Below, piece after piece: positions 7,322-24,695 of a stretch of DNA of 40,286 nt; position 1 is the stretch's first letter; every line of letters starts with the position of its first letter. The stretch is from a virus. Lineage: Monodnaviria > Loebvirae > Hofneiviricota > Faserviricetes > Tubulavirales > Inoviridae. Location: the IMG/VR virus record IMGVR_UViG_2874968258_000009; one strand, 5' to 3'. The translations under genes were made by a program, and so were the position numbers. The notes beneath the pieces were generated by a model. It was not told where the DNA came from and searched no databases. It saw only the letters and a list, made by a program, of their open reading frames with translations.

Positions 7322-7349
7322 ATTTAACATAATATACATTATGCGCACC
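7322..7349 (-). other. dif: Chromosomal dif site (XerC/XerD recombination site) forming the left prophage junction (attL)
   Basis: Plus strand ATTTAACATAATATACATTATGCGCACC is the reverse complement of the canonical E. coli dif GGTGCGCATAA-TGTATA-TTATGTTAAAT (28/28). Confidence 0.9.
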
Positions 7350-7489
7350 AATGGTAAGGATGGCAGAATCTGGCGGGAATCGTTGACACTGGCCGTCAAC
7401 TGGCTACTATCGACAGTGATTCAAAATCATCCGTTTCTCCAAACGAATCAGAATCAAATGTCTGTCAGCAGTAAGTGAACGGCCTGACC

Positions 7490-7738
7490 TCACCAATCAG
7501 GCCTGTTCATCCAGTTAGTTGGTAAATCTGTACCTGATACACGAGAATCAAACACCACTTCTTCAGTGCCATCACCATGATGCCGGATAATCTGGTAACC
7601 GGATTGCGGGTTCTGGCTCTCAGCTTCATAAGCAGCCCGGAATGCTGGATCTTTGAGAAGCATCACTTTCAGCTCCTGATGTGTCATGAATTTTTCCATG
7701 ATAAGCCCCGATGAATGCTGCCGCGCCGAATCAGCCAT
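7490..7738 (-). CDS. Hypothetical small protein downstream of the secretin gene (start uncertain; possibly the internal Met at MTHQELK)
   Basis: 82-aa ORF with protein-like composition (MEKFMTHQELKVMLLKDPAFRAAYEAESQNP...); unchanged in all three copies despite a nearby indel. Confidence 0.4.
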   Translation of the reverse strand: MADSARQHSSGLIMEKFMTHQELKVMLLKDPAFRAAYEAESQNPQSGYQIIRHHGDGTEEVVFDSRVSGTDLPTNWMNRPDW

Positions 7739-8220
7739 AACGCTGAAAATGGAAACTGTACGGCTTGGCCAACCCCGGACAGCAACAAAACAAGTTTTGT
7801 CACTGACCGGCGTTATCTTTCAAAACAGACAGTTAACGATTTTTTGTCTGGTGTTTATGCGTGAAATTTCGTGCGTACGAAATTCACCACCAATAAACAA
7901 ACGGACGATGACTGACCGGAAAAGCAATGCCGTCAGCATCATGACCACGCATTACCTGATTGAGAAGACTTCTGACTTCACGGCGCTCAGGCCTGGTCAT
8001 CATCATATTGCGATACCAGGACGGCGATTTATCAAACCATCTGGCACAACTGGCAAAATGTGAACCTACACGACGATAAGACTTAAGGCGGCCACCGGGA
8101 AGTCGGTCACGCGCCTTATTTTTTACAGACATAATAAATCCTCTAAGTAACTGAATACCTAGAAGATGTCGTACTGTTCATACCCCATAAAAGTTAACGC
8201 CATAATAAAAATCCATACAA

Positions 8221-9465
8221 TCAGTTCAGGTTGTCCCGGAACAGTTCACCGCTCCTCGCGGCGCTGCGGGGCGTCGCCCTGCTCCGGTCAACCTTTCTGA
8301 CCTGAAGCATCACCATAATATCAGTCTTGTTGCTTTCACTGGTACGGGAACCGAAGAAGCTCCAGCCGGAACTGGCCTTACTGTCTTTCTGTTCAGCAAG
8401 GCCACCAAGTAAAATAATATCACCATCTGCAAGGCTGACTTCGGTTGTTACATCACGCTTGATAAGGGTTGGCGAGTTATTGACGCCGGTTTCAGTGGTC
8501 ACAAAGTTGGAAAGCTGCTGCTGAATCTTGAGATCCATTGTCCGACTTTTGATTGATGGCGTCACGTTAAACAAAACACCGCTGGAACGATATTCAACGG
8601 ATTGCGTTGTCGTATTGTTATTCACCGTAACACTGCCCAGTACTGGCACATCAGAGCCGACTGAAAAAGACGCTGAGGCATTATTTTTTACCCGCAGTCG
8701 TGGCGCACTGACAACAGTAAAACGACTGTCGGTTTTCAGCAGATTGAAAATGGCATCAATGGAGCCGGTTCGAATATTGATAAAATTATCCAGTCCGGCA
8801 GCACCAACTGAAATATTGAATTTATCAGACAGAATTTTAGCCGCTAAAAGAATGCCGGAGCCGTCAGACTGCGAGGTCTGAACCTCAAAAACATAACCAG
8901 AAACAACCACTTCATCACTCATCGTATCCAGCGAAGTGACCAGTGTTTTCAGGATGGCGATATCCTCTTTCGTACCATAATAAACCAGAATATCACCGGT
9001 TCGATTGATGTAGTTGCTTGCCCCTGATGAACCTTTTAGCGAATCGTCAGAAATCACGGCTCCACTGTTATTGAAGGAGCCTGAAACGTAGCCGCCAAGA
9101 ATATCAGACAGGTAGGCAACAGAACGGTACTGAGGCGTATAAGTCCATGTATAACGTGGCTTAACCGGCTCTTTCGGCGTATAGGGCGCGATAAAATCAA
9201 CACCCTTTTTCGTCCATATTCGAATGTTCATATTGCCAAGATAACGGGTTACAAATTCCCGTTCATCAATATCAGGTGTTAACCTGAATGTAATCATTCG
9301 TTCATCATTAACAAGCTGTGGATCTAGCATATACGGGACTTTAAGCACCTCACTGTAAATAAGAGAAATAGCCTCCGGTAGCTTGACTTTATTTAATTCA
9401 AGCTCTGACCCTGCGAAAGCACATGAAGAAAATAGTAGCGTTAATGCGAGTAAAATCTTTTTCAT
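8221..9465 (-). CDS. Phage secretin (pIV-like outer-membrane export channel)
   Basis: 414 aa with an N-terminal signal peptide (MKKILLALTLLFSSCAFA) and a C-terminal secretin-type region (VVSAPRLRV...GDIILLGGLAEQKDSKASSGWSFFG). Confidence 0.8.
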   Translation of the reverse strand: MKKILLALTLLFSSCAFAGSELELNKVKLPEAISLIYSEVLKVPYMLDPQLVNDERMITFRLTPDIDEREFVTRYLGNMNIRIWTKKGVDFIAPYTPKEPVKPRYTWTYTPQYRSVAYLSDILGGYVSGSFNNSGAVISDDSLKGSSGASNYINRTGDILVYYGTKEDIAILKTLVTSLDTMSDEVVVSGYVFEVQTSQSDGSGILLAAKILSDKFNISVGAAGLDNFINIRTGSIDAIFNLLKTDSRFTVVSAPRLRVKNNASASFSVGSDVPVLGSVTVNNNTTTQSVEYRSSGVLFNVTPSIKSRTMDLKIQQQLSNFVTTETGVNNSPTLIKRDVTTEVSLADGDIILLGGLAEQKDSKASSGWSFFGSRTSESNKTDIMVMLQVRKVDRSRATPRSAARSGELFRDNLN

Positions 9466-10490
9466 TATTTTTTCCCCGTATAAAGCGTCACACGCTCACC
9501 ATCAATAATTCCGCTCATCAACATCCCTTTGTAATTAAAACTGGATGCAGGAACGGCACGCAAAACACCGGCACCGTTAACAAGAATCACAAACGCCCTG
9601 CCTTCACTGGTCATTCTCCCTGATATACGCCACTCGGTTGAAAGTGGCGGTTCAGCTGGTTCTGAGGGAGTATCTGATGCTGGAGTAACAGCGGAAGAAC
9701 GAAACATGGCCGCATCACGTACATCTGTTGTAGTCAAATCTGGCGAGGGATCGCTTCGGCCAAACGTGCTGAAAAATGAGTAAATCAGCCAGCCTGACCC
9801 GATAAACATCAATGGAAAAAGCACAAGAAAGAACCTGACTTTGCCAGAATTCCAGATGCTCTGGCGTTTATCTGTCTGCTTTTCATTACCGTTATTTCCT
9901 TCATAGCTTTTGTAAAGTTCAAAAATATCAGGGTTATATTTATTGCGATAACTGGTGACGAGGTTGCTTTTATAGATTTTGTGGCCTGAATATACGTCAA
10001 TGCAGTAATGATTATTCAGGCCCAACGCTTTCAGCTTGCGCATCCGGTAAGTTGTTTCTATTTTGTCTTTCAGAAAGCGAGCAATATTAGAAAGTGACTG
10101 ATTTACAATAACCAAATCACAGCTAATACCCGTTTCAGGGTGCGTAAAATGACGATGTTCAGCAATAAATGATTTCTTCTCAGCCGTCATATCCTTATCG
10201 CTACCGAAGATTCGCCATGCTTCATCAATAACAATTAAATCACCAAACTGGCAAAAGCTCCCTTCCCCACCTTTAAAAGGAAAGAAATCTGCTTTAAGCA
10301 CATCATCATTATCCACAACAATAATTTCTCCCGTTGCATCAGGATAACGTTCGGTGATTTTATCTTTTTGTAAACCATAAATGTTCGTCACAACTCTCCG
10401 GCCGCTGGTAAATGCCGGAATAATGACATTGCAAACGGCTTCATAACTTTTTCCTGAGCCGGGTATGCCAATATATGCAGAAATAGCCAT
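9465..10490 (-). CDS. Zot/pI-family phage assembly ATPase
   Basis: 341 aa with an N-terminal Walker A motif (GIPGSGKS), a Walker B-like LIVIDEAW, and a C-terminal hydrophobic segment; positioned immediately upstream of the secretin gene as gene I is in Ff phages. Confidence 0.8.
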   Translation of the reverse strand: MAISAYIGIPGSGKSYEAVCNVIIPAFTSGRRVVTNIYGLQKDKITERYPDATGEIIVVDNDDVLKADFFPFKGGEGSFCQFGDLIVIDEAWRIFGSDKDMTAEKKSFIAEHRHFTHPETGISCDLVIVNQSLSNIARFLKDKIETTYRMRKLKALGLNNHYCIDVYSGHKIYKSNLVTSYRNKYNPDIFELYKSYEGNNGNEKQTDKRQSIWNSGKVRFFLVLFPLMFIGSGWLIYSFFSTFGRSDPSPDLTTTDVRDAAMFRSSAVTPASDTPSEPAEPPLSTEWRISGRMTSEGRAFVILVNGAGVLRAVPASSFNYKGMLMSGIIDGERVTLYTGKK

Positions 10491-10493
10491 AAC

Positions 10494-10781
10494 TCACCCT
10501 ATAACAGGAATACGTCGAATAATAAAACGAGTAGCCATTGCGGAGATAATCATACTAATCCCCTGTGGTAATTTACTCAGGTTAATGAAGTACCAGAATC
10601 CGTCTGATAAATTGGCAAACAGCGATGAGAGATTGCTTGAATCTGGCAGTAACTCAACAAGGATTTCAACGAAGCCCTGGACTACAAAATACAGCGCAAA
10701 GAATACGACGAATTTAATAATCAATGACCGGAATACAAAACCTAACAAAGTATTTAATGCACTAATCAGAATCCCAAACAT
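10494..10781 (-). CDS. Minor coat protein (pVI-like), hydrophobic
   Basis: 95-aa strongly hydrophobic ORF between the pIII-like and pI genes, the syntenic position of gene VI. Confidence 0.5.
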   Translation of the reverse strand: MFGILISALNTLLGFVFRSLIIKFVVFFALYFVVQGFVEILVELLPDSSNLSSLFANLSDGFWYFINLSKLPQGISMIISAMATRFIIRRIPVIG

Positions 10782-10793
10782 AGTTGCACTCCT

Positions 10794-12506
10794 TTAGGCA
10801 CTCAGAATAATACGGAGCGCAACAAATCCCCATATAATCAGAAATATGGTTTCTACGGCGCTTCTGTTCTGCTCAATTAACGGACAATGGGAGTCAATTC
10901 TGTACTGGTGATTAAACACGCTGAATTCAACAACGGGGCAGGATGCTGAACGAGAGCCGATGTTAAATTCGTTTGTAAAAGGCAACAAGTTAATAATTGG
11001 CGTTAAAATATCTCTTGCCGTTGGCGTTTCTTCAAGCTCAGGCTCTTTTACACCGGGATCTTCTCCCAAATCTATATTGCCATTATTTCCAGTGTCAGAT
11101 CCTGAGTTGTTATTAATGGTAATATCAATATTGACGTCAGCCCCTGCACTGTCAGATACAGGTGAAAGCATATCTAATAACGTTGGAGATAGCCTAAGTT
11201 CCGACATCGCAGAAGTTACTTCAGCCGGTGAAACCTCTTTAAACGGTAAGCCGTTATAATCGGCATTAACGGCAGCTTCAGACCACAGCTCGTTAATCAT
11301 GTCGGCAAGAAGTGCTGGCGATACACTAACACTATCAAGATACTCCAGATAATCAATCATGGACTCAATATTTCCGGCCTCCAGTACTTCCGTCATGGCT
11401 TTATATTTGGTATTGGTCCAGATAGTAAGCTCACTCTTTTCATCAATATCTTTTGCGGTGTAATCCTCTTTTTCAGGAACGGCGCAAATCGTCGAATATC
11501 CACCATTTGACTGATTAGTCGTTTTACAAGGCGTGTTGTGATACTGATATTGCTTGCCTGCTGTTAAATAAGCAACGCTGTAATACATGGGAAGCCCTGC
11601 TACATTTTCATACATGGGAATACCTGCGGGAAATGAAGATGCGGCCGGGTTGCTATACAAGTGTGTAATCTCAGGTATTTCATAAAATGAGGAAGGATAA
11701 GTAAACTTATAATTCTGTTCAGTAAAGGATACATCTCCATTACTGTTGACAACTTTATTCGTCACAGTGCGTTCAAAATTTGTTAGTGTTTCAGTATAAG
11801 TACGCGAGTTATAGTCATTAAGATAATTTCTGGCAATTTCAGTTGGATTATCACCATAGTAATAAATTAGCTCTTTCGAATCCTGATAATAATAAAGTGC
11901 ATTATCTGGCGTGGAATATCCTGTTTCAACACCTACAACTGGAGAACCCGCATCCACATTATTACGACTAACATGAAGGATTACCGGACTTAATTCCTGT
12001 GGTTCAAAATTAACGGTTATCGTCTTACTTTCACCACTTTGACCACTGTACGTTACTTCATATAAATTATCGGAAATCTTTTTACCGTTAGTCATTACCA
12101 TTACCGAGCCGTCAGATGAACTCAAAGAAGACGGAACAAAAGATGATACAGCAGCAGCAATACCCGCCCACGTTGCAACACCGCTCATTTTGTATGATGA
12201 GGCAGCAGGCAAGTATTCGGCAGCATTAGCCGCAGCGCGGCCAACAAAAACACGGGTTGCTGTAAGCTGTGATGCCGTATAAATCGCATCATTGGCAGCA
12301 AAGCGACGAACAAGCACCCGGCCAACGACTTTAGGAATAACAGCCCGCGCAGCCACTGCTGCAATTGCTGGTACAAATGAATATGAATATCGGGGAAAGG
12401 AAACCCAGAGAAAGGAAAAAATAAAGGAATAAACCGTCAGCCTCTTAGCCCAAGAATAACGACATAAGCTGAGACGATCCCCCATAAAAGGGAACCCAAT
12501 TTCCAT
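10794..12506 (-). CDS. Adsorption/minor coat protein (pIII-like); true start may be an internal Met
   Basis: Large ORF after the major coat gene with a Gly/Ser/Asn-rich linker (NNNSGSDTGNNGNIDLGEDPG) and a C-terminal membrane anchor (AVETIFLIIWGFVALRIILSA). Confidence 0.6.
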   Translation of the reverse strand: MEIGFPFMGDRLSLCRYSWAKRLTVYSFIFSFLWVSFPRYSYSFVPAIAAVAARAVIPKVVGRVLVRRFAANDAIYTASQLTATRVFVGRAAANAAEYLPAASSYKMSGVATWAGIAAAVSSFVPSSLSSSDGSVMVMTNGKKISDNLYEVTYSGQSGESKTITVNFEPQELSPVILHVSRNNVDAGSPVVGVETGYSTPDNALYYYQDSKELIYYYGDNPTEIARNYLNDYNSRTYTETLTNFERTVTNKVVNSNGDVSFTEQNYKFTYPSSFYEIPEITHLYSNPAASSFPAGIPMYENVAGLPMYYSVAYLTAGKQYQYHNTPCKTTNQSNGGYSTICAVPEKEDYTAKDIDEKSELTIWTNTKYKAMTEVLEAGNIESMIDYLEYLDSVSVSPALLADMINELWSEAAVNADYNGLPFKEVSPAEVTSAMSELRLSPTLLDMLSPVSDSAGADVNIDITINNNSGSDTGNNGNIDLGEDPGVKEPELEETPTARDILTPIINLLPFTNEFNIGSRSASCPVVEFSVFNHQYRIDSHCPLIEQNRSAVETIFLIIWGFVALRIILSA

Positions 12507-12530
12507 AATTCAATCTCCATAATAACCTCA

Positions 12531-12557
12531 AGTAAAACGGGCGATATTGCATCGCCC
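12531..12557 (-). terminator. Rho-independent terminator after the major coat gene
   Basis: Hairpin GGGCGAT-attgc-ATCGCCC (12539-12557) followed on the minus strand by GTTTTACTT; sits between pVIII and pIII as in Ff phages. Copies at +9504 and +19007. Confidence 0.55.
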
Positions 12558-12570
12558 ATGAATAATGAAT

Positions 12571-12804
12571 TTATGCGGATTTAACGGTACGCAATACCCA
12601 GCGAACGCCAGCGACACCGGCATAAAGTGTTACCAGTGAAGCAGCAACGGCCATAATCGCAACCAGAACTGTACTGAAATCAATGCTGTTCGTCAGCGGC
12701 GATAAATCAACACCACTTGATGCCGCTCCTTCTGCAGCGAAAGTCGCGCCAGAAACAGCCATTAATGCAGGTACAGCCAGAAAACTAACGATTTTTTTAA
12801 ACAT
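12571..12804 (-). CDS. Major coat protein (pVIII-like)
   Basis: 77 aa: signal peptide (MFKKIVSFLAVPALMAVSGATFA), acidic N-terminus, hydrophobic core and basic C-terminus (RWVLRTVKSA). Confidence 0.8.
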   Translation of the reverse strand: MFKKIVSFLAVPALMAVSGATFAAEGAASSGVDLSPLTNSIDFSTVLVAIMAVAASLVTLYAGVAGVRWVLRTVKSA

Positions 12805-12838
12805 AACTCTATCTCCATTACATTTTAAAGGTTCGCAT

Positions 12839-13090
12839 TCAAGCAGTACGAACCATCTTTATTACCTGTCCCACACCTACAGAAAAAAGCCAGAGCAGCA
12901 GGACAGAGCCAAAACCTAATATCCAGTAATTTCCCATTGCAGAATAATCAATTTGATGAAATGGTTCAGAACGTACCATTATTGCCTGACATTCTTTTGC
13001 ATTGTTCGCATTACATAAATAACCTTCAATACGGTAACCATTTTCAGGAATATGATTATCAAACTGAATATCGAAACCTGATGTATCCAT
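12839..13090 (-). CDS. Small membrane-anchored protein (possible minor coat/assembly protein)
   Basis: 83 aa with a C-terminal TM segment (YWILGFGSVLLLWLFSVGVG) between the ssDNA-binding and major coat genes. Confidence 0.4.
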   Translation of the reverse strand: MDTSGFDIQFDNHIPENGYRIEGYLCNANNAKECQAIMVRSEPFHQIDYSAMGNYWILGFGSVLLLWLFSVGVGQVIKMVRTA

Positions 13091-13092
13091 AA

Positions 13093-13410
13093 TCAGCCTT
13101 TTATTTCAGTAATGCCGCCATCTGATGAAATGTTATAAGTTACTCCTTCCCTCCCCTCCATTGACCAGACGCGAACATATACAGGTATCTGGACTAACTT
13201 ACCGATAAAATTATTTGCCTGATTCATTACACCGGCATTAACAAGAGCCTGAGATACACGAATAATAATCTGGTCTTGCTTAGTGCCGCCAAAACCATCA
13301 GGAATCTCTAAGCCAACACCAATTTCATTATAGTATCCCTGACCATTGACCTTATTACGCTGGCGAGCACCAAGCATTTTACCTTTTACAAAAAGACCAT
13401 AATTAGACAT
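13093..13410 (-). CDS. Putative ssDNA-binding protein (pV-like)
   Basis: 105-aa ORF immediately downstream of the replication initiator, the gene V position; assignment is by position and size only. Confidence 0.45.
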   Translation of the reverse strand: MSNYGLFVKGKMLGARQRNKVNGQGYYNEIGVGLEIPDGFGGTKQDQIIIRVSQALVNAGVMNQANNFIGKLVQIPVYVRVWSMEGREGVTYNISSDGGITEIKG

Positions 13411-13421
13411 ATCACTCTCCT

Positions 13422-14474
13422 TTAATGCCAGTTACTGGCATGTGAAATACGGTTATAATCGAAAATTAAACCTTTCTCATAAACCCATGATGGAATTTTG
13501 GCTGGTTTGGCTTCAAGAGTACGAACCAACGGAACAACGTTATTAGAATCCGGTGACTCACAATAAAAGTTAATATCTATTCCGAAAGAAAGTAGTTCTT
13601 TACGGTGTCGGTAGAATGTAGGTTTCGGTAACATCTCTTTCATGTTCGCGCCCTGCTTCCACAATAAATATGTAGACTGTATTTTTCTTGGGAGATTAAT
13701 TATTTTTTCATCAGTTAATATGGTATTTTGATTCATTTCTATTCTCCCTACATAGTCAGAGAATAATTTATTGGGCGTCTCAATATTCCAGCTATTACCA
13801 AGCGTAAGATTCAAATCAATTAATTCAGTTGTTCTTAATGTTAATTCAATGCGTAATTTATCTTTTGACCAGTCCAGTAAACCAGCTTTAACGAATTCGT
13901 CTGCCATCTGGTGCCCTTTTTTGCCAGATGTATGCTCATCATATTTTGAATAAAATTTCAGGCTCCAACGACGGGAGTTTTTCCCTAAGTAAACAGTGCC
14001 ACCTTTACCACAGGCGCGACCGTGGCGAGTTTTAGCTTTAAATTCTGCGGCATATAACCATGCGCGGACATTTTCTAATGTTGACAATGAATACATGTAA
14101 TTGATATCGATGCGCGAGATCTTAAATTGCCCTTCCATGACCTGCCGATAGGATGGTAGATCATGAGGAATATGCAGTAATGCCAATATTCTGGCGTAAG
14201 CTGTTAACACCAACCCTTGCAAATCGTCGGAACCTATAACAGAGTGACCTTGCAAAAACTTTGATGGATTACCGTCAATGTAGAGATGTGTTGCCCTACC
14301 TTCACCATCAGATCCAACAGACCTTACTTTCATTGTGGACTCATGCGAACCGCGAACGGTCAACCGTTTTACTGTTTCCCACTCCACTGCACCGTCAGCA
14401 TCGACGCTGACGACACTACCAGCCGGTAACGGTCGGTGTGTGCAAGGCAGGATTCCGGTAAACCAGTCGATCAT
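13422..14474 (-). CDS. Rolling-circle replication initiation protein (pII/RstA-like)
   Basis: 350-aa first gene of the minus-strand operon, divergent from an HTH regulator; length and position match pII/RstA-type initiators (..GGTVYLGKNSRRWSLKFYSKYDE..). Confidence 0.65.
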   Translation of the reverse strand: MIDWFTGILPCTHRPLPAGSVVSVDADGAVEWETVKRLTVRGSHESTMKVRSVGSDGEGRATHLYIDGNPSKFLQGHSVIGSDDLQGLVLTAYARILALLHIPHDLPSYRQVMEGQFKISRIDINYMYSLSTLENVRAWLYAAEFKAKTRHGRACGKGGTVYLGKNSRRWSLKFYSKYDEHTSGKKGHQMADEFVKAGLLDWSKDKLRIELTLRTTELIDLNLTLGNSWNIETPNKLFSDYVGRIEMNQNTILTDEKIINLPRKIQSTYLLWKQGANMKEMLPKPTFYRHRKELLSFGIDINFYCESPDSNNVVPLVRTLEAKPAKIPSWVYEKGLIFDYNRISHASNWH

Positions 14475-14645
14475 AAGTAGTCACACCCATCAAAATATGT
14501 GTCAATAGTCATTTGTGAGCAGATTGAATGGTCACAATGTAATATGCTCAGATCTGACAGTCAATACATTTGCAATGTTTAAATTGTCAGAAATGAGCAT
14601 CAAATCTAACTATTGAAAAACCACTGTTAAGATGGAGCCAAGTAG
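14475..14645. promoter_or_regulatory. Divergent promoter/operator region between the replication operon and the HTH regulator gene
   Basis: AT-rich 171-bp intergenic region containing two direct repeats, GTCAATAGTCATTTG (14501-14515) and GTCAATACATTTG (14560-14572), plus further TGTCA-containing motifs. Confidence 0.5.
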
Positions 14646-15092
14646 ATGGGCAACAATGAGCATGAAGTTATGGCGGACAAACAGAGAGCAGAACGTATCA
14701 AAAAGGTAATTCTGGAACACTCGACTTATGAAGAACTGGCCGAGAAGACTGGCATTAGCGTGAGTACGCTGGTCAGGATAGCGTCCGGCAAAACTGAACC
14801 TAAATTCAGTGACATCATTCAGATAGCTAAAATTACGGGTGCAGACTTAAACACCTTAGCTTATGGCTATGCTCTTGATGTTAAAGAAGAAGCTACCGAG
14901 CGGAAGCTAATCACTTCTGCGGATGGATATACTGATGAAGAAACCACTAACGCACATAATTTCATCGTGTGGAACATCAGGACACTGGAAAAACAAGATA
15001 TTCTGGCACTCGCAAGGCAGGTTTCTGCATTAAGTTCATACACTTACAGTACTAAAATGTTTATGAAAAAAGCGGTGTCTGGAGAAGAGTAA
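14646..15092 (+). CDS. XRE/Cro-C1-type helix-turn-helix transcriptional regulator (candidate phage repressor)
   Basis: 148 aa with an HTH segment (YEELAEKTGISVSTLVRIASGKTEPKFSDIIQIAKITGADLNTLAYG); divergently oriented to the replication gene. Confidence 0.7.
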   Translation: MGNNEHEVMADKQRAERIKKVILEHSTYEELAEKTGISVSTLVRIASGKTEPKFSDIIQIAKITGADLNTLAYGYALDVKEEATERKLITSADGYTDEETTNAHNFIVWNIRTLEKQDILALARQVSALSSYTYSTKMFMKKAVSGEE

Positions 15093-15121
15093 AAGGATTA
15101 ACAGTCTCAGGAATGAGACAA

Positions 15122-15156
15122 ACGTGCAGTATTACCAACACTGCACGTTCTTTATT
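15122..15156 (+). terminator. Rho-independent terminator after the regulator gene
   Basis: Hairpin ACGTGCAGT-attaccaaca-CTGCACGT followed by TCTTTATT. Copies at +9504 and +19007. Confidence 0.6.
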
Positions 15157-15191
15157 GTGCGAATTCTGAACAGTAAAAAAGGATCAAAAGG

Positions 15192-15614
15192 ATGAGTAGA
15201 AATAACGAAACAAGCGGCGTTGAACTGGTTGTCGTCGGCGTATTTGCTTTCTGTCTGGCAGTTGTTGCCTGGCTAATGAAAACTTTCGATGTTGAATGGC
15301 AAACAGCACTGGAAACTGCGCCTGGCCTGATAGTCTGGCTGCTTGTTGTTGGGGCGGGGATCTTTTTCGGGATCAAAATGGAAACAGGCCTTGTTCGCTG
15401 GGGTGCTCCACTGGCGATCGCCCTTCTGATTCCGGTATTCAAACCAATTCTTAAGGAAGCTGCCGGAGTACGTGAAATGGGTGGGTTGGTTTTCGATGAT
15501 ATGGTTTCGTGGTACGGAACTGGCTGGGGAATGTCGTTAATGTTTTTCGGTATTCTTATCGTCGGATACGGTCTGCTTTATTGGTGGCACAGAAGAAACT
15601 CTTATTATTGGTAA
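15192..15614 (+). CDS. Small integral membrane protein (about 4 predicted TM helices), function unknown
   Basis: 140 aa with hydrophobic segments LVVVGVFAFCLAVVAWL, LIVWLLVVGAGIFFGI, APLAIALLIPVF and MSLMFFGILIVGYGLLYWW; Shine-Dalgarno AAGGA upstream. Confidence 0.6.
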   Translation: MSRNNETSGVELVVVGVFAFCLAVVAWLMKTFDVEWQTALETAPGLIVWLLVVGAGIFFGIKMETGLVRWGAPLAIALLIPVFKPILKEAAGVREMGGLVFDDMVSWYGTGWGMSLMFFGILIVGYGLLYWWHRRNSYYW

Positions 15615-15681
15615 GCAATTTTGCTCCATATATCAGCGGTGAAGTTCAGAGGTGGTTATTTTTTAGTCTTGAGGAAAGATA

Positions 15682-16476
15682 ATGAAGCCAGAAAAAGCTA
15701 TCGAGATATTAAAAAGACAACGGGAGCAAATCCCAGCAATACAAAATGAACGAAGGAGTACAGGAAATAACCCAAGTTTTAACTTATGGCAAAGAAACAC
15801 TAAGACCGCCATATCAAAAATATTTGGTGAAGAGTCAGATCACAAAAAAGAATTTGGCTCAATTCGATACTCTTTAATGGCATTTGTTGGTGATACACCA
15901 GATTATGTTTTCGATAACGCATTTTGTAGTGGTTTAGATGAAGCACATTCTCTTCTTACGTCTATGATTGCTGAGATTGAAGAATATGGAATTGACGGAA
16001 ATTTCATAGAGACAAAAAATGATCCCGTAGCTCTTGTTGAACTAATTTGCCATCAATTTCATAAGGTTGCAAGACAGCTACAGCAACGACACGATAATAG
16101 ACAAACCATTGAAATAAATGACGAATATGACGTTCAGGATTTATTTCATGCTCTTTTGAAGATTCATTTCGAGGATGTCAGACCAGAAGAATATACGCCA
16201 AGCTATGCAGGATCTTCAACACGAGTTGACTTCTTGTTAAAGAATGAAAAAATCATTATCGAGTTAAAGAAAACGAGAAAAAATCTCAAGCAAAAAGAAG
16301 TTGGTGAGCAATTAATTGTTGATATAGCTCATTATCAAACGCATCCTGATTGCGAAACTTTAGTGTGTTTTGTATATGACCCTGAAGGTAGAATTGCCAA
16401 TCCAATTGGTGTGGAGAATGACCTTGAGCGTTGTACAAATTCAATTTCGGTAAAAGTAATAATCTCACCAAAATAA
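15682..16476 (+). CDS. Hypothetical protein with a PD-(D/E)xK-like nuclease motif (inferred from motif only)
   Basis: 264 aa. C-terminal half has acidic residues (DEYDVQD) followed by RVDFLLKNEKIIIELKK, i.e. a D ... E-x-K spacing as in PD-(D/E)xK folds; Shine-Dalgarno GAGGAAAG upstream. Confidence 0.55.
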   Translation: MKPEKAIEILKRQREQIPAIQNERRSTGNNPSFNLWQRNTKTAISKIFGEESDHKKEFGSIRYSLMAFVGDTPDYVFDNAFCSGLDEAHSLLTSMIAEIEEYGIDGNFIETKNDPVALVELICHQFHKVARQLQQRHDNRQTIEINDEYDVQDLFHALLKIHFEDVRPEEYTPSYAGSSTRVDFLLKNEKIIIELKKTRKNLKQKEVGEQLIVDIAHYQTHPDCETLVCFVYDPEGRIANPIGVENDLERCTNSISVKVIISPK

Positions 16477-16486
16477 AAGGACATAT

Positions 16487-16753
16487 ATGGCTACTGTAGA
16501 TGATGTTGCACAATGGATGAAATCAGAGCTGGAAAACACAAACTGGCTATATCAAGAAACTGTTGTATATAAAATAAAAGAGTTATTTGGCGATACTTTC
16601 GTATATTTGAATGCTAATGGAAATTTATCCATTGATAAAAAAGTATTAGCGAAGTTTAGAAAGCTAACTAATGACACGGTTATATGGGAGAGAGGTGAAA
16701 AAGCATGGCGAAAAAGACAAGGTTATGATGCCCCTGGTCGACAGCAGGACTAA
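16487..16753 (+). CDS. Hypothetical small protein, tightly coupled to the upstream 264-aa gene
   Basis: 88-aa ORF starting 11 nt after the upstream stop, with Shine-Dalgarno AAGGA; basic C-terminus. Confidence 0.5.
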   Translation: MATVDDVAQWMKSELENTNWLYQETVVYKIKELFGDTFVYLNANGNLSIDKKVLAKFRKLTNDTVIWERGEKAWRKRQGYDAPGRQQD

Positions 16754-16787
16754 ATAATTGGTTCGCACAATGACGTTATGCTAAAGA

Positions 16788-16824
16788 GGCCGCTGCGGGA
16801 TTCGATTTTCGCAGCGGCCTTTTC
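16788..16824 (+). terminator. Rho-independent terminator adjacent to the att site
   Basis: GGCCGCTGCG-loop-CGCAGCGGCC followed by TTTTC. Copies at +9504 and +19007. Confidence 0.6.
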
Positions 16825-16853
16825 AACATAACGAGTCGTACATTATGCGCACC
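16825..16853 (-). other. Phage attP-type XerCD site at the copy1/copy2 junction
   Basis: Minus-strand reading GGTGCGCATAA-TGTACGACTCG-TTATGTTGAAA: perfect XerC arm, divergent and longer central region, XerD-like arm 9/11. Confidence 0.6.
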
Positions 16854-16993
16854 AATGGTAAGGATGGCAGAATCTGGCGGGAATCGTTGACACTGGCCGT
16901 CAACTGGCTACTATCGACAGTGATTCAAAATCATCCGTTTCTCCAAACGAATCAGAATCAAATGTCTGTCAGCAGTAAGTGAACGGCCTGACC

Positions 16994-17242
16994 TCACCAA
17001 TCAGGCCTGTTCATCCAGTTAGTTGGTAAATCTGTACCTGATACACGAGAATCAAACACCACTTCTTCAGTGCCATCACCATGATGCCGGATAATCTGGT
17101 AACCGGATTGCGGGTTCTGGCTCTCAGCTTCATAAGCAGCCCGGAATGCTGGATCTTTGAGAAGCATCACTTTCAGCTCCTGATGTGTCATGAATTTTTC
17201 CATGATAAGCCCCGATGAATGCTGCCGCGCCGAATCAGCCAT
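16994..17242 (-). CDS. Hypothetical small protein (copy 2)
   Basis: Identical to the 7490-7738 product. Confidence 0.4.
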   Translation of the reverse strand: MADSARQHSSGLIMEKFMTHQELKVMLLKDPAFRAAYEAESQNPQSGYQIIRHHGDGTEEVVFDSRVSGTDLPTNWMNRPDW

Positions 17243-17724
17243 AACGCTGAAAATGGAAACTGTACGGCTTGGCCAACCCCGGACAGCAACAAAACAAGTT
17301 TTGTCACTGACCGGCGTTATCTTTCAAAACAGACAGTTAACGATTTTTTGTCTGGTGTTTATGCGTGAAATTTCGTGCGTACGAAATTCACCACCAATAA
17401 ACAAACGGACGATGACTGACCGGAAAAGCAATGCCGTCAGCATCATGACCACGCATTACCTGATTGAGAAGACTTCTGACTTCACGGCGCTCAGGCCTGG
17501 TCATCATCATATTGCGATACCAGGACGGCGATTTATCAAACCATCTGGCACAACTGGCAAAATGTGAACCTACACGACGATAAGACTTAAGGCGGCCACC
17601 GGGAAGTCGGTCACGCGCCTTATTTTTTACAGACATAATAAATCCTCTAAGTAACTGAATACCTAGAAGATGTCGTACTGTTCATACCCCATAAAAGTTA
17701 ACGCCATAATAAAAATCCATACAA

Positions 17725-18969
17725 TCAGTTCAGGTTGTCCCGGAACAGTTCACCGCTCCTCGCGGCGCTGCGGGGCGTCGCCCTGCTCCGGTCAACCTTT
17801 CTGACCTGAAGCATCACCATAATATCAGTCTTGTTGCTTTCACTGGTACGGGAACCGAAGAAGCTCCAGCCGGAACTGGCCTTACTGTCTTTCTGTTCAG
17901 CAAGGCCACCAAGTAAAATAATATCACCATCTGCAAGGCTGACTTCGGTTGTTACATCACGCTTGATAAGGGTTGGCGAGTTATTGACGCCGGTTTCAGT
18001 GGTCACAAAGTTGGAAAGCTGCTGCTGAATCTTGAGATCCATTGTCCGACTTTTGATTGATGGCGTCACGTTAAACAAAACACCGCTGGAACGATATTCA
18101 ACGGATTGCGTTGTCGTATTGTTATTCACCGTAACACTGCCCAGTACTGGCACATCAGAGCCGACTGAAAAAGACGCTGAGGCATTATTTTTTACCCGCA
18201 GTCGTGGCGCACTGACAACAGTAAAACGACTGTCGGTTTTCAGCAGATTGAAAATGGCATCAATGGAGCCGGTTCGAATATTGATAAAATTATCCAGTCC
18301 GGCAGCACCAACTGAAATATTGAATTTATCAGACAGAATTTTAGCCGCTAAAAGAATGCCGGAGCCGTCAGACTGCGAGGTCTGAACCTCAAAAACATAA
18401 CCAGAAACAACCACTTCATCACTCATCGTATCCAGCGAAGTGACCAGTGTTTTCAGGATGGCGATATCCTCTTTCGTACCATAATAAACCAGAATATCAC
18501 CGGTTCGATTGATGTAGTTGCTTGCCCCTGATGAACCTTTTAGCGAATCGTCAGAAATCACGGCTCCACTGTTATTGAAGGAGCCTGAAACGTAGCCGCC
18601 AAGAATATCAGACAGGTAGGCAACAGAACGGTACTGAGGCGTATAAGTCCATGTATAACGTGGCTTAACCGGCTCTTTCGGCGTATAGGGCGCGATAAAA
18701 TCAACACCCTTTTTCGTCCATATTCGAATGTTCATATTGCCAAGATAACGGGTTACAAATTCCCGTTCATCAATATCAGGTGTTAACCTGAATGTAATCA
18801 TTCGTTCATCATTAACAAGCTGTGGATCTAGCATATACGGGACTTTAAGCACCTCACTGTAAATAAGAGAAATAGCCTCCGGTAGCTTGACTTTATTTAA
18901 TTCAAGCTCTGACCCTGCGAAAGCACATGAAGAAAATAGTAGCGTTAATGCGAGTAAAATCTTTTTCAT
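17725..18969 (-). CDS. Phage secretin (pIV-like), copy 2
   Basis: Identical to the 8221-9465 product. Confidence 0.8.
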   Translation of the reverse strand: MKKILLALTLLFSSCAFAGSELELNKVKLPEAISLIYSEVLKVPYMLDPQLVNDERMITFRLTPDIDEREFVTRYLGNMNIRIWTKKGVDFIAPYTPKEPVKPRYTWTYTPQYRSVAYLSDILGGYVSGSFNNSGAVISDDSLKGSSGASNYINRTGDILVYYGTKEDIAILKTLVTSLDTMSDEVVVSGYVFEVQTSQSDGSGILLAAKILSDKFNISVGAAGLDNFINIRTGSIDAIFNLLKTDSRFTVVSAPRLRVKNNASASFSVGSDVPVLGSVTVNNNTTTQSVEYRSSGVLFNVTPSIKSRTMDLKIQQQLSNFVTTETGVNNSPTLIKRDVTTEVSLADGDIILLGGLAEQKDSKASSGWSFFGSRTSESNKTDIMVMLQVRKVDRSRATPRSAARSGELFRDNLN

Positions 18970-19994
18970 TATTTTTTCCCCGTATAAAGCGTCACACGCT
19001 CACCATCAATAATTCCGCTCATCAACATCCCTTTGTAATTAAAACTGGATGCAGGAACGGCACGCAAAACACCGGCACCGTTAACAAGAATCACAAACGC
19101 CCTGCCTTCACTGGTCATTCTCCCTGATATACGCCACTCGGTTGAAAGTGGCGGTTCAGCTGGTTCTGAGGGAGTATCTGATGCTGGAGTAACAGCGGAA
19201 GAACGAAACATGGCCGCATCACGTACATCTGTTGTAGTCAAATCTGGCGAGGGATCGCTTCGGCCAAACGTGCTGAAAAATGAGTAAATCAGCCAGCCTG
19301 ACCCGATAAACATCAATGGAAAAAGCACAAGAAAGAACCTGACTTTGCCAGAATTCCAGATGCTCTGGCGTTTATCTGTCTGCTTTTCATTACCGTTATT
19401 TCCTTCATAGCTTTTGTAAAGTTCAAAAATATCAGGGTTATATTTATTGCGATAACTGGTGACGAGGTTGCTTTTATAGATTTTGTGGCCTGAATATACG
19501 TCAATGCAGTAATGATTATTCAGGCCCAACGCTTTCAGCTTGCGCATCCGGTAAGTTGTTTCTATTTTGTCTTTCAGAAAGCGAGCAATATTAGAAAGTG
19601 ACTGATTTACAATAACCAAATCACAGCTAATACCCGTTTCAGGGTGCGTAAAATGACGATGTTCAGCAATAAATGATTTCTTCTCAGCCGTCATATCCTT
19701 ATCGCTACCGAAGATTCGCCATGCTTCATCAATAACAATTAAATCACCAAACTGGCAAAAGCTCCCTTCCCCACCTTTAAAAGGAAAGAAATCTGCTTTA
19801 AGCACATCATCATTATCCACAACAATAATTTCTCCCGTTGCATCAGGATAACGTTCGGTGATTTTATCTTTTTGTAAACCATAAATGTTCGTCACAACTC
19901 TCCGGCCGCTGGTAAATGCCGGAATAATGACATTGCAAACGGCTTCATAACTTTTTCCTGAGCCGGGTATGCCAATATATGCAGAAATAGCCAT
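18969..19994 (-). CDS. Zot/pI-family assembly ATPase, copy 2
   Basis: Identical to the 9465-10490 product. Confidence 0.8.
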   Translation of the reverse strand: MAISAYIGIPGSGKSYEAVCNVIIPAFTSGRRVVTNIYGLQKDKITERYPDATGEIIVVDNDDVLKADFFPFKGGEGSFCQFGDLIVIDEAWRIFGSDKDMTAEKKSFIAEHRHFTHPETGISCDLVIVNQSLSNIARFLKDKIETTYRMRKLKALGLNNHYCIDVYSGHKIYKSNLVTSYRNKYNPDIFELYKSYEGNNGNEKQTDKRQSIWNSGKVRFFLVLFPLMFIGSGWLIYSFFSTFGRSDPSPDLTTTDVRDAAMFRSSAVTPASDTPSEPAEPPLSTEWRISGRMTSEGRAFVILVNGAGVLRAVPASSFNYKGMLMSGIIDGERVTLYTGKK

Positions 19995-19997
19995 AAC

Positions 19998-20285
19998 TCA
20001 CCCTATAACAGGAATACGTCGAATAATAAAACGAGTAGCCATTGCGGAGATAATCATACTAATCCCCTGTGGTAATTTACTCAGGTTAATGAAGTACCAG
20101 AATCCGTCTGATAAATTGGCAAACAGCGATGAGAGATTGCTTGAATCTGGCAGTAACTCAACAAGGATTTCAACGAAGCCCTGGACTACAAAATACAGCG
20201 CAAAGAATACGACGAATTTAATAATCAATGACCGGAATACAAAACCTAACAAAGTATTTAATGCACTAATCAGAATCCCAAACAT
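19998..20285 (-). CDS. pVI-like minor coat protein, copy 2
   Basis: Identical to the 10494-10781 product. Confidence 0.5.
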   Translation of the reverse strand: MFGILISALNTLLGFVFRSLIIKFVVFFALYFVVQGFVEILVELLPDSSNLSSLFANLSDGFWYFINLSKLPQGISMIISAMATRFIIRRIPVIG

Positions 20286-20297
20286 AGTTGCACTCCT

Positions 20298-22010: not shown

Positions 22011-22074
22011 AATTCAATCTCCATAATAACCTCAAGTAAAACGGGCGATATTGCATCGCCCATGAATAATGAAT

Positions 22075-22308
22075 TTATGCGGATTTAACGGTACGCAATA
22101 CCCAGCGAACGCCAGCGACACCGGCATAAAGTGTTACCAGTGAAGCAGCAACGGCCATAATCGCAACCAGAACTGTACTGAAATCAATGCTGTTCGTCAG
22201 CGGCGATAAATCAACACCACTTGATGCCGCTCCTTCTGCAGCGAAAGTCGCGCCAGAAACAGCCATTAATGCAGGTACAGCCAGAAAACTAACGATTTTT
22301 TTAAACAT
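22075..22308 (-). CDS. Major coat protein, copy 2
   Basis: Identical to the 12571-12804 product. Confidence 0.8.
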   Translation of the reverse strand: MFKKIVSFLAVPALMAVSGATFAAEGAASSGVDLSPLTNSIDFSTVLVAIMAVAASLVTLYAGVAGVRWVLRTVKSA

Positions 22309-22342
22309 AACTCTATCTCCATTACATTTTAAAGGTTCGCAT

Positions 22343-22594: not shown

Positions 22595-22596
22595 AA

Positions 22597-22914: not shown

Positions 22915-22925
22915 ATCACTCTCCT

Positions 22926-23978: not shown

Positions 23979-24149
23979 AAGTAGTCACACCCATCAAAAT
24001 ATGTGTCAATAGTCATTTGTGAGCAGATTGAATGGTCACAATGTAATATGCTCAGATCTGACAGTCAATACATTTGCAATGTTTAAATTGTCAGAAATGA
24101 GCATCAAATCTAACTATTGAAAAACCACTGTTAAGATGGAGCCAAGTAG

Positions 24150-24596: not shown

Positions 24597-24695
24597 AAGG
24601 ATTAACAGTCTCAGGAATGAGACAAACGTGCAGTATTACCAACACTGCACGTTCTTTATTGTGCGAATTCTGAACAGTAAAAAAGGATCAAAAGG

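What the first reader, a model, noticed from the sequence alone, without database searches (positions are those of the whole stretch)
14475..15156. Divergent regulatory switch: HTH regulator opposite the replication operon with repeated GTCAATA..CATTTG motifs
The 171-bp intergenic region carries two direct repeats (14501-14515 and 14560-14572) between the divergent rep and HTH genes, the architecture of the rstR-rstA switch in CTXphi. These are candidate operator sites where the regulator would repress the replication/morphogenesis operon and itself. The regulator has its own terminator, so the downstream cargo genes are probably transcribed separately.
Basis: partly seen in the sequence, partly recalled or inferred. 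Interest (0 to 1): 0.45.

Follow-up and report, generated by a model that had tools for sequence, protein, structure and literature searches.

The report
Filamentous prophage repressor–replication gene switch

Summary
A 171-bp gap (14475-14645) separates a leftward gene II-type rep gene from a rightward 148-aa HTH_3 gene. It contains GTCAATAgtCATTTG and GTCAATA--CATTTG, and a hairpin terminator follows the regulator.

The element is a dif-integrated inovirus in three tandem copies. It is 99.6% identical to Yersinia pestis YpfΦ, and the regulator matches YPO2273 at 148 of 148 residues. Published work already calls YPO2273 "RstR-like, role untested", so the switch idea is not new.

Comparison of 13 related loci changes the site assignment:
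- **Likely operators:** 16-bp inverted repeats, TGnTCA-N4-TGAGCA, at O1 14506-14521, O2 14545-14560 and O3 14584-14599. The motif occurs only in this gap within the 9.5-kb phage.
- **Covariation:** the palindrome sequence changes with the regulator's recognition helix across lineages.
- **Conservation:** half-sites are invariant among close relatives, while their 4-nt spacers vary.
- **GTCAATA boxes:** these are conserved whatever the regulator's specificity. Box 2 is the -35 (TTGACT) of a conserved leftward rep promoter, and O2 sits in that promoter's spacer.
- **Cassette exchange:** gap plus regulator (14475-15102) is swapped as a unit between otherwise near-identical prophages, as happens with rstR/ig-2 in CTXφ.

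There is no LexA box, and the protein is only distantly related to RstR. Nothing has been tested experimentally. Verdict: a new member of a known kind, of modest interest.

The parts
7335..35860 (.). Array of three tandem copies (periods 9504 and 9503) of a dif-integrated inovirus of the CUS-1/YpfΦ type. A perfect E. coli dif lies at 7322-7349 and imperfect dif-like junctions lie between copies.
13422..14474 (-). Replication initiator gene (gene II type, 350 aa). It is the first gene of the leftward replication/morphogenesis/secretion operon.
   Evidence: Pfam Phage_CRI E 1e-73 plus G2P_X_C. 58% identical to I2-2 gene II.
14475..14645 (.). 171-bp divergent control region.
14501..14515 (+). It equals box 1 (TGTCAATA, 14500-14507) plus the left part of O1.
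14506..14521 (.). O1, the candidate operator nearest rep: TAGTCA-tttg-TGAGCA. It is centred about +16 from the predicted rep transcription start.
   Evidence: PWM trained on other lineages gives 21.9 bits, the top hit in the 9.5-kb phage. The position is conserved in 13 loci. Half-sites are invariant while the spacer varies.
14536..14541 (-). Predicted -10 hexamer of the rep promoter (TACATT on the minus strand).
   Evidence: Invariant among 9 close relatives.
14545..14560 (.). O2, a weaker lineage-specific candidate operator: TGCTCA-gatc-TGACAG. It fills the spacer between the -35 and -10 of the rep promoter.
   Evidence: PWM gives 10.0 bits, close to the chance level. Half-sites are invariant and the spacer varies.
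14559..14564 (-). Predicted -35 hexamer of the rep promoter (TTGACT on the minus strand).
14584..14599 (.). O3, the candidate operator nearest the regulator gene: TTGTCA-gaaa-TGAGCA. It lies exactly 28 nt upstream of the TAAGAT hexamer.
   Evidence: PWM gives 19.6 bits, the second-best hit. The 28-nt spacing holds in 12 of 13 loci.
14625..14637 (+). TGTTAAGAT, an extended -10-like element and the candidate regulator promoter, directly followed by GGAG.
   Evidence: TAnnAT-GGAG is conserved in all 13 loci. It is invariant in close relatives. No -35 match was found.
14646..15092 (+). 148-aa Cro/C1-type HTH regulator. It is identical to Y. pestis YPO2273 and belongs to PHROG 3557. It has an N-terminal HTH and a conserved helical C-terminal domain.
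14647..14662 (.). Possible fourth, weak site O4 (TGGGCA-acaa-TGAGCA) over the start of the regulator ORF.
   Evidence: PWM gives 12.0 bits. A similar sequence is present in L022, L021, L031 and L039 but not in L024 or L029. It lies in coding sequence, so this is weak evidence.
15104..15157 (+). Small hairpin GTCTCA-ggaa-TGAGAC (15104-15119), followed by the terminator hairpin (15121-15149) and a T-tract.
   Evidence: Homology to prophages with other regulator cassettes resumes at 15091/15103.
23979..24660 (.). Identical second copy of the finding.
33482..34163 (.). Identical third copy of the finding.

Best explanation
The region is the immunity-type control cassette of a CUS-1/YpfΦ filamentous prophage. 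The 148-aa Cro/C1-type HTH protein, most likely a dimer held by its helical C-terminal domain, binds 16-bp inverted repeats of the form TGnTCA-N4-TGAGCA.

Two strong sites flank the leftward rep promoter (-35 at 14564-14559, -10 at 14541-14536, predicted start near 14529):
- O1 (14506-14521) lies in the early transcribed region, at about +16.
- O3 (14584-14599) lies at about -62.

A weaker site, O2 (14545-14560), fills the promoter spacer. Occupying these sites blocks transcription of rep and the downstream morphogenesis and secretion genes. That keeps the prophage quiet and gives partial superinfection immunity.

O3 also sits at a strictly conserved 28 nt from a TAnnAT element that has no -35 and lies just before the regulator gene. 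The regulator therefore probably controls its own synthesis from O3, possibly by activation as at lambda PRM. A weak site over its own start codon (O4) may cap its expression.

Box 2 is the rep promoter's -35, and the role of box 1 is unexplained.

What is shown: gene identities, the motifs, their conservation, their covariation with the regulator, and cassette exchange.
What is inferred: binding itself, the direction of regulation, the transcription start sites, and the oligomeric state.
For: 1. **Motif is confined to the gap.** TCA-N4-TGAGCA occurs three times in the 9504-bp phage, all within the 171-bp gap. None of 2000 shuffles reached three copies.
2. **Independent PWM test.** A PWM built only from sites of four other lineages (L024, L029, L031, L037) ranks O1 (21.9 bits) and O3 (19.6 bits) first and second in the whole phage.
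3. **Covariation with the recognition helix**:
   - Regulators with helix 'SVSTLVR' have TCA-N4-TGAGCA at the two conserved positions. These are the window, L024/25, Aeromonas L029, Photobacterium L031 and L037, and they sit next to three unrelated Rep types.
   - Regulators with 'N/G-V/S/T-RTL' have GACA-N4-TGTC. These are L023, L038, L026, L035, L002 and L006.
   - L033 has GCCA-N4-TGGC.
   - No locus carries another class's motif.
4. **Conserved geometry in 13 loci**. The regulator-proximal site is followed by 28 nt, then TAnnAT-GGAG, in 12 of 13 loci. A TTGACn-16/17-TAnn[AT]T rep promoter is found in 11 of 13. The two strong sites are 81 bp apart in 6 loci.
5. **Variation pattern in 9 close relatives**. 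Half-site positions vary at 1 of 34, the N4 spacers at 5 of 12, and the rest of the gap at 38 of 97 (Fisher p 0.003 and 1.7e-4). Predicted promoter hexamers and GGAG vary at 0 of 22.
6. **Cassette exchange.** Homology to E. coli prophages with other regulators stops exactly at the rep ATG (14474) and resumes at 15091/15103. This is the same pattern as the heteroimmune rstR/ig-2 regions of CTXφ. It also argues that the replication origin is not in this gap.
7. **Fold.** The HTH fold resembles 434 Cro, P22 c2, SinR and C.AhdI, which bind inverted repeats as dimers.
8. **Literature** (PMC4266046). A resident YpfΦ gives partial protection against superinfection. Loss of RovA raises transcription of YPO2274-YPO2279 together, which fits one operon driven from this gap.
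Against: - No binding, footprint or transcription start data exist for this protein or region. Every site and promoter is predicted.
- O2 and O4 score only 10-12 bits, where about 1.25 chance hits per phage genome are expected. O2 is absent from other lineages.
- The two strong sites do not overlap the core rep promoter. Repression from +16 and -62 would need a roadblock, cooperativity or looping. Their 78-81 bp separation is not a whole number of helical turns.
- If TAAGAT is the regulator's -10, the conserved GGAG would lie upstream of the transcript start. The promoter assignment or the translation start is therefore uncertain.
- O3 would be centred near -48, which is not a textbook activator position.
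- Plasmid homologues with an identical HTH have no such site on their own plasmid. The specificity rule could therefore not be confirmed there.
- The motifs were partly defined after inspecting the data.
Confidence: 0.65

Rival explanations
1. One reading: the two direct repeats GTCAATA(gt)CATTTG are the operators, and the regulator binds them as tandem units to repress both promoters.
For: The repeats are real and arise in only about 1% of shuffles. Both GTCAA boxes are conserved in position in most relatives. Repeat 1 overlaps O1.
Against: The boxes stay the same while the recognition helix and the palindromes change. They are even present in L041, whose regulator is very divergent. CATTTG varies in Y. 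pestis, L018, L021 and L022 for repeat 1, and is not conserved outside the lineage for repeat 2. Box 2 coincides with a conserved -35 hexamer. Cro/C1-type HTH dimers normally read inverted repeats, not direct ones (established knowledge; fold matches).
Confidence: 0.1
2. The palindromes are mainly structural signals in the single-stranded phage DNA, such as a complementary-strand origin or a promoter-mimicking hairpin, and are not protein operators.
For: O2 and O3 form a 27-nt imperfect palindrome. The packaged strand of the gap folds better than shuffles: z -2.55 and z -2.7. Several relatives also score z of about -2, and L033 scores -5.5.
Against: Excess structure is expected wherever palindromic operators are present. 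It is absent in L031 and L038. The big hairpin needs O2, which other lineages lack. Substitutions fall in the N4 spacers without compensation, and half-site sequence, not just pairing, is conserved and tracks the recognition helix. The whole gap is swapped between phages that keep the same Rep and core.
Confidence: 0.1
3. The gap holds the Rep-dependent plus-strand origin, and the repeats are Rep binding sites (iterons).
For: The gap lies immediately upstream of rep. Repeated motifs near rep genes are often origin elements.
Against: Prophages with 79-93% identical rep genes carry completely unrelated gaps. The same gap architecture occurs next to unrelated Rep families: Phage_CRI proteins of 350, 413 and 505 aa, and a Rep_trans protein of 504 aa.
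Confidence: 0.03
4. The protein is chiefly a host-directed or cargo-directed transcription factor, or an activator of phage production, rather than a repressor of rep.
For: The direction of regulation is not shown. O3's fixed distance from a promoter without a -35 suggests the protein can activate. Plasmid homologues exist without any rep neighbour.
Against: All high-scoring sites in the phage lie in the rep-regulator gap. One candidate site fills the rep promoter spacer and another lies just downstream of the predicted start. Cassette exchange and the reported partial superinfection protection (PMC4266046) fit an immunity repressor.
Confidence: 0.1

Closest known systems
YPO2273 / YPO2274 control region of Yersinia pestis YpfΦ, and the CUS-1 prophage of E. 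coli O18:K1:H7
   Same: The regulator is identical at 148 of 148 aa. The gap differs by one base, 14515 G to A. The phage core is 99.6-99.7% identical. Both integrate at dif as tandem copies. UTI89 carries the same prophage. The review PMC4266046 already calls YPO2273 RstR-like and sited like rstR, with its role not yet demonstrated. It also reports that RovA binds the putative YPO2274 promoter.
   Different: The cargo genes after the terminator (15173-16754) differ. No operators or promoters have been described in the literature held here.
CTXφ rstR - ig-2 - rstA switch of Vibrio cholerae
   Same: Both have an HTH repressor divergent from the rep gene across a short gap (138 bp in CTXφ, 171 bp here). 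Both have about three repressor sites. In both, repressor plus gap form a cassette exchanged between otherwise similar phages. Neither repressor has a peptidase domain. Both phages integrate at dif through XerCD.
   Different: RstR is only 26% identical, over 78 aa of the HTH, and was not found in a phage-wide tblastn search. The C-terminal domain is unrelated. Rep here is Phage_CRI, not the RstA/Rep_trans type. There is no LexA box. From my own knowledge, RstR operators are long (about 50 bp) and bound by tetramers, whereas the candidates here are 16-bp palindromes.
Lambdoid immunity regions (434, P22, lambda OR with PR/PRM)
   Same: Both use a Cro/C1-type HTH that reads short inverted repeats. 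Both have divergent promoters with several operators. Both allow exchange of heteroimmune cassettes. A site upstream of a weak maintenance promoter may activate it. The HTH fold matches 434 Cro and P22 c2.
   Different: There is no Cro partner and no RecA-cleavable domain. The operators flank rather than tile the lytic-side promoter. The spacing to the candidate maintenance promoter (centre about -48) differs from OR2/PRM (about -42, from my knowledge).
FpsR of Shewanella filamentous phage SW1
   Same: FpsR is an HTH repressor without a protease domain, encoded opposite the rep operon. It binds the rep promoter in gel-shift assays (PMC4762005).
   Different: SW1 has a 621-bp gap with long overlapping 5' UTRs, and FpsR does not bind its own promoter. 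Homology to FpsR was not tested here.

Membership tests
Pfam HTH_3 (PF01381), Cro/C1-type regulators | Score above the gathering threshold over the HTH | tested here: met
   38.1 bits against a cut-off of 23, residues 27-68. The model has five short helices with pLDDT 82-87. Fold matches include 434 Cro and P22 c2.
YpfΦ/CUS-1 regulator YPO2273 (PHROG 3557) | Full-length sequence identity and the same genomic position next to the gene II homologue | tested here: met
   148 of 148 aa identical in Y. pestis NCTC5923, with the same neighbours. PHROG 3557 E 4e-74.
CTXφ RstR-type switch | HTH repressor gene divergent from the rep gene across a short gap | tested here: met
CTXφ RstR-type switch | Orthology of the repressor to RstR | tested here: inconclusive
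   26% identity over 78 aa, HTH only, pairwise E 5e-6. CTXφ was not recovered by tblastn at E 1e-3. The C-terminal half is unrelated.
CTXφ RstR-type switch | The controlled gene is an RstA-type (Rep_trans) initiator | tested here: not met
   Rep here is Phage_CRI/G2P_X_C. There is no significant similarity to RstA.
CTXφ RstR-type switch | LexA/SOS box in the rep promoter region | tested here: not met
   No CTGT-N8-ACAG with up to one mismatch in 14475-14645.
CTXφ RstR-type switch | Repressor plus gap exchanged as a heteroimmune cassette while rep is kept | tested here: met
   Homology breaks at 14474 and resumes at 15091/15103 in L041 and L042. L023 and L038 carry a 75%-identical regulator with different palindromes.
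CTXφ RstR-type switch | Repressor binds multiple operators in the gap and represses the rep promoter and its own | not testable with these tools
   Only in-silico candidates are available: O1-O3, and possibly O4.
dif/XerCD-integrating inoviruses | Prophage flanked by dif, in tandem copies, with inovirus core genes | tested here: met
   Perfect 28-bp E. coli dif at 7322-7349. Three copies. Rep, G5P, coat, Zot and secretin identified. hipA lies to the right, as at the E. coli dif locus.

The most novel reading that the evidence does not exclude
The regulator family may work beyond its own phage. Conjugative MOBP/MPF_T plasmids of about 41 kb in E. coli and Salmonella carry an orphan homologue. 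Its HTH (residues 25-58) is identical to the phage protein, yet the plasmid has no cognate TGnTCA-N4-TGAGCA site. Such a plasmid could use a captured phage repressor to silence the rep promoter of incoming CUS-1/YpfΦ-type filamentous phages, which would be plasmid-borne immunity against inoviruses. Separately, the invariant 28-nt spacing between the regulator-proximal operator and a TAnnAT element without a -35 could mean the protein activates its own gene. That would be a lambda PRM-like bistable switch, which has not been described for filamentous phages.
Probability: 0.15. Interest if true: 0.6.

Novelty: new member of a known kind. Interest (0 to 1): 0.3.

Why it matters
YpfΦ and CUS-1 have been linked to the fitness of the plague bacillus and of invasive E. 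coli K1 during infection. The published review says the role of the putative repressor YPO2273 still awaits demonstration. The comparative analysis here gives concrete things to test: three 16-bp sites, a rep promoter, a candidate autoregulated promoter, and a rule linking the residue at recognition-helix position 40 (Ser or Arg) to the operator half-site. It also shows that the regulator and its sites form an exchangeable immunity cassette across Enterobacteria, Vibrio, Aeromonas and Photobacterium inoviruses. That would help predict which filamentous prophages exclude each other. It does not reveal a new kind of mechanism.

Tried and rejected
- **Nucleotide search of the phage collection:** no match. 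The element was identified through E. coli genomes and Y. pestis instead.
- **UPφ901 assignment:** I first took the phage for UPφ901 (PMC7307601). I rejected this after blastn showed 99.6% identity to YpfΦ across the core. UPφ-type phages probably correspond to L041 and L042, which share only the rep/gene V module.
- **LexA box:** none in the gap.
- **Rfam:** only chance-level miRNA hairpin hits.
- **Box 1 (TATTGACA, 14507-14500) as a rep promoter -35:** rejected. No -10 follows it, and the transcript would start inside or after the rep ATG. In the Vibrio-type loci the box lies only 7-15 nt from the rep start.
- **Leftward promoter-like hit at 14630-14603:** rejected, because its -10 region is variable in close relatives.
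- **Rightward sigma-70 promoter with a -35:** none found. Only the TGTTAAGAT element is conserved.
- **Small palindrome 15104-15119 as a further operator:** rejected. L042, which has an unrelated 60-aa regulator, keeps a hairpin at that place with a different stem sequence (GTACCA..TGGTAC).
- **Cognate sites on the 41-kb plasmid:** none above chance.
- **Structure search:** it gave only generic HTH matches, none with E <= 1e-3, and said nothing about the C-terminal domain.
- **Single-strand folding of the gaps:** it did not discriminate between operators and structural hairpins.
- **Primary papers:** the RovA paper (PMC1569194) and the CUS-1 paper (PMC135385) are not held in the library.
Full report
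**What is in the window.** ORF listing and repeat analysis show three head-to-tail copies of a 9.5-kb unit, with periods of 9504 and 9503 bp. The array spans about 7335-35860. A perfect 28-bp E. coli dif site lies at 7322-7349, and imperfect dif-like junctions separate the copies. IS1 and IS3-family elements and a hipA homologue flank the array, and hipBA also flanks the same prophage in E. coli D8 and UTI89.

Each unit encodes, on the minus strand:
- a secretin and a Zot/pI protein;
- a DUF2523 protein and a 570-aa pIII-like protein;
- a coat protein and an 83-aa protein;
- a G5P-type ssDNA-binding protein;
- a 350-aa gene II-type initiator (Phage_CRI plus G2P_X_C).

On the plus strand it encodes the 148-aa HTH_3 protein, followed by three cargo ORFs.

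**Which phage it is.** It is a dif-integrated inovirus. The same prophage is present at 80% coverage or more in 87 of 5426 complete E. coli genomes, including UTI89. A blastn comparison shows 99.6-99.7% identity to the Y. pestis prophage over 7335-9348 and 11647-15172. Only the cargo at 15173-16754 differs. The element is therefore of the CUS-1/YpfΦ lineage, which is reported to integrate at dif as two to four tandem copies (PMC4266046). I first took it for UPφ901 (PMC7307601). That phage is said to share only genes II and V with YpfΦ, so I rejected the assignment.

**Checking the observation.** The coordinates are right:
- rep's ATG is at 14474 and the regulator's ATG is at 14646, so the gap is 171 bp.
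- 14501-14515 reads GTCAATAGTCATTTG and 14560-14572 reads GTCAATACATTTG. These are two shared blocks (7 and 6 nt) with a 2-nt indel between them.
- A comparable two-block repeat arose in 20 of 2000 dinucleotide shuffles. The repeats are real and mildly unusual, but not compelling alone.
- The terminator is real: a 10-bp stem, a U-tract, dG -22 kcal/mol, z -3.9.
- All three copies of 14475-15156 are identical.

**The regulator and its relatives.** The protein is identical at 148 of 148 residues to the Y. pestis protein encoded at the position of YPO2273. It belongs to PHROG 3557, annotated 'transcriptional regulator'.

Homologues share two features: an almost invariant HTH (…TGISVSTLVRIASGKTEPK…) and a conserved C-terminal segment (AHNFIVWN…SALSSYSYS). 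An AlphaFold model is confident for the HTH (pLDDT 82-87). It shows two long C-terminal helices at lower confidence. The closest solved folds are 434 Cro, P22 c2, SinR, C.AhdI and DdrO, none with E of 1e-3 or better.

Family members sit divergently next to the rep gene of inoviruses from E. coli, Vibrio, Aeromonas and Photobacterium and from metagenomes. Those phages have clearly different Rep proteins, including Phage_CRI proteins of 350, 365, 413 and 505 aa and a Rep_trans protein of 504 aa.

**Comparative anatomy of the gap.** Laying out the gaps of 13 loci shows one shared plan, reading from rep towards the regulator:
1. a TGTCAATAG box (box 1);
2. immediately after it, a palindrome of the form xxCA-N4-TGxx;
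3. a second (T)GTCAA(T) box (box 2). On the rep strand this reads TTGACn and is followed after 16-17 bp by TAnn[AT]T. This sigma-70-type rep promoter is found in 11 of 13 loci. In the window it is TTGACT-17-TACATT, which the consensus scan also picked;
4. a second palindrome;
5. exactly 28 nt (12 of 13 loci, 27 nt in the other);
6. TAnnAT followed directly by GGAG, then the regulator's ATG.

**The palindrome covaries with the recognition helix.**
- Helix 'S-V/I-S-T-L-V-R' goes with TCA-N4-TGAGCA, ideally TGCTCA-N4-TGAGCA. This covers the window lineage, L024/25, L029, L031 and L037.
- Helix 'N/G-V/S/T-R-T-L' goes with GACA-N4-TGTC. This covers L023, L038, L026, L035, L002 and L006.
- L033 goes with GCCA-N4-TGGC.
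- No locus carries another class's motif.

By alignment with the 434 repressor (my own knowledge, not tested here), the Ser/Arg position corresponds to a base-contacting residue at the start of helix 3.

**Sites in the window.**
- TCA-N4-TGAGCA occurs three times in the 9504-bp unit, all within the gap. None of 2000 shuffles reached three copies.
- As 16-mers the sites are O1 14506-14521 (TAGTCAtttgTGAGCA), O2 14545-14560 (TGCTCAgatcTGACAG) and O3 14584-14599 (TTGTCAgaaaTGAGCA). Their centres are 39 bp apart.
- A PWM trained only on sites from other lineages ranks O1 (21.9 bits) and O3 (19.6 bits) first and second in the phage.
- O2 (10.0 bits) and a possible O4 over the regulator's start (14647-14662, 12.0 bits) are near the chance level of about 1.25 hits per genome.
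- Among nine distinct gaps of the close lineage, half-site positions vary at 1 of 34, N4 spacers at 5 of 12 and the rest at 38 of 97 (Fisher p 0.003 and 1.7e-4). The predicted -35, -10, TAAGAT and GGAG never vary.
- The 27-nt imperfect palindrome found earlier is simply O2 and O3 in inverted orientation.

The GTCAATA boxes are conserved in every lineage whatever the regulator's specificity. They are even present in L041, whose regulator is very divergent. They are therefore unlikely to be the regulator's specific sites. Box 2 is the rep promoter's -35. Box 1 has no usable -10 and lies 7-26 nt from the rep start, so it is not a promoter. In the Vibrio-type loci it overlaps the likely ribosome-binding region, and its role remains unexplained. 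The CATTTG of repeat 1 is the 'CA' of O1's left half-site plus its variable spacer. The CATTTG of repeat 2 lies between O2 and O3 and is not conserved outside the lineage.

**Cassette behaviour.** E. coli dif prophages with 79-93% identical rep genes carry quite different gaps and regulators:
- L041 has a 150-aa distant family member.
- L042 has an unrelated 60-aa protein, and its gap holds four GAGTTCA direct repeats.
- L023 and L038 have a 75%-identical regulator with GACA-N4-TGTC sites.

In L041 and L042, homology to the window stops exactly at the rep ATG (14474/14473) and resumes at 15103/15091, just before the terminator, at 95-97% identity. In L023 and L038 the rep homology likewise ends at or just past the rep ATG, the control gap is unalignable, and only the regulator ORF is alignable again, at about 75% identity. 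The interval 14475-15102 is thus an exchangeable module. This is the hallmark of an immunity region, as with rstR/ig-2 in CTXφ. It also makes a Rep origin in this gap very unlikely.

**Most likely mechanism.** The regulator, probably a dimer, binds O1 and O3 strongly and O2 more weakly. With the rep start predicted near 14529, O2 fills the promoter spacer, O1 lies at about +16 and O3 at about -62. Occupancy should block initiation or early elongation of the rep-to-secretion operon. This fits two published observations: partial superinfection protection, and co-regulation of YPO2274-2279 (PMC4266046).

The fixed 28-nt distance from O3 to a TGTTAAGAT element without a -35 suggests that O3 also governs the regulator's own promoter, perhaps positively. 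This part is weak. The conserved GGAG would then lie upstream of the transcript start, and the implied site centre (about -48) is unusual.

There is no LexA box and no peptidase domain, so induction would have to work differently from lambda, and partly differently from CTXφ. In Yersinia, RovA is reported to act on this region (PMC4266046).

**Comparison with known systems.** Functionally this is an RstR-type switch, and the literature already says so for the identical YPO2273. It is not an RstR orthologue in any strict sense:
- identity is 26% over the HTH only;
- the C-terminal domain is different;
- the Rep family is different;
- there is no SOS box;
- the candidate operators are short palindromes.

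It also resembles the lambdoid immunity regions and FpsR of SW1 (PMC4762005). I found no paper describing operators, promoters or binding for this protein.

**Verdict.** The thing itself is a new, uncharacterised member of a well-known kind of phage switch, in an already described prophage. Interest is modest. The value added here is a specific, testable operator and promoter map and the helix-operator covariation.

Noticed in passing
L043 (NZ_CP061111.1) 1903-2274; also H67-H85: Conjugative MOBP/MPF_T plasmids of about 41 kb in E. coli, Salmonella and Klebsiella encode a 122-141-aa homologue just after a resolvase gene. It is about 60% identical overall, and residues 25-58 of the HTH are identical. 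The plasmid has no TGnTCA-N4-TGAGCA site above chance. It may be an orphan repressor acting in trans on filamentous phages.
   Followed up: partly
window 15682-16476 (+), 16487-16753 (+), 15192-15614 (+): The cargo after the terminator includes a 264-aa protein with a DpnII/MboI-type restriction endonuclease domain (PF18742, E 7e-59). No methyltransferase lies next to it. There is also a DUF6953 protein and a 140-aa protein of unknown function (PHROG 4174). This cargo differs from that in UTI89 and Y. pestis.
   Followed up: partly
L042 (NZ_CP173466.1) 1596-1947: A related E. coli prophage with the same rep replaces the HTH cassette with a 60-aa unrelated protein. Its gap holds four direct GAGTTCA repeats. 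This looks like a different class of immunity regulator in the same slot.
   Followed up: no
window 15104-15119; L042 just after its regulator: A small hairpin, GTCTCA-ggaa-TGAGAC, lies just before the terminator. L042 has GTACCA-cgaa-TGGTAC at the same place. The stem is kept through changes on both sides, which suggests a structural element rather than a protein site.
   Followed up: partly
window 14500-14507: Box 1 (TGTCAATA/G) abuts the rep-proximal operator in nearly every lineage, whatever the Rep type or regulator specificity. It is not a usable promoter, and its function is unexplained.
   Followed up: partly
window about 26847 (copy 3) versus 17343-17349 (copy 2): The third prophage copy has a T6 to T5 homopolymer change. 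It shortens the period to 9503 bp and alters a small plus-strand ORF (125 aa to 115 aa).
   Followed up: partly
L045 (NZ_CP128883.1), 9565 bp circular: A record deposited as an 'untypable plasmid' of E. coli TUM14759 is this phage's circular genome. It is 99.5% identical over 8.3 kb and is presumably the replicative form.
   Followed up: partly
window 4373-5749 and 37917-38435; 1-457 and 3846-4302: There are three IS1 copies. Two lie in tandem 858 bp apart to the left of the array and one lies to the right. IS3-family transposase genes lie between 457-nt perfect inverted repeats. The dif region of this strain is heavily IS-laden.
   Followed up: no
window 14647-14662: The first codons of the regulator (ATG GGC AAC AAT GAG CAT GAA) spell an operator-like TGGGCA-acaa-TGAGCA. 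The 'EH' codons that create TGAGCA recur in L031 and L039. The short N-terminal extension may be conserved for its DNA sequence rather than its peptide.
   Followed up: partly
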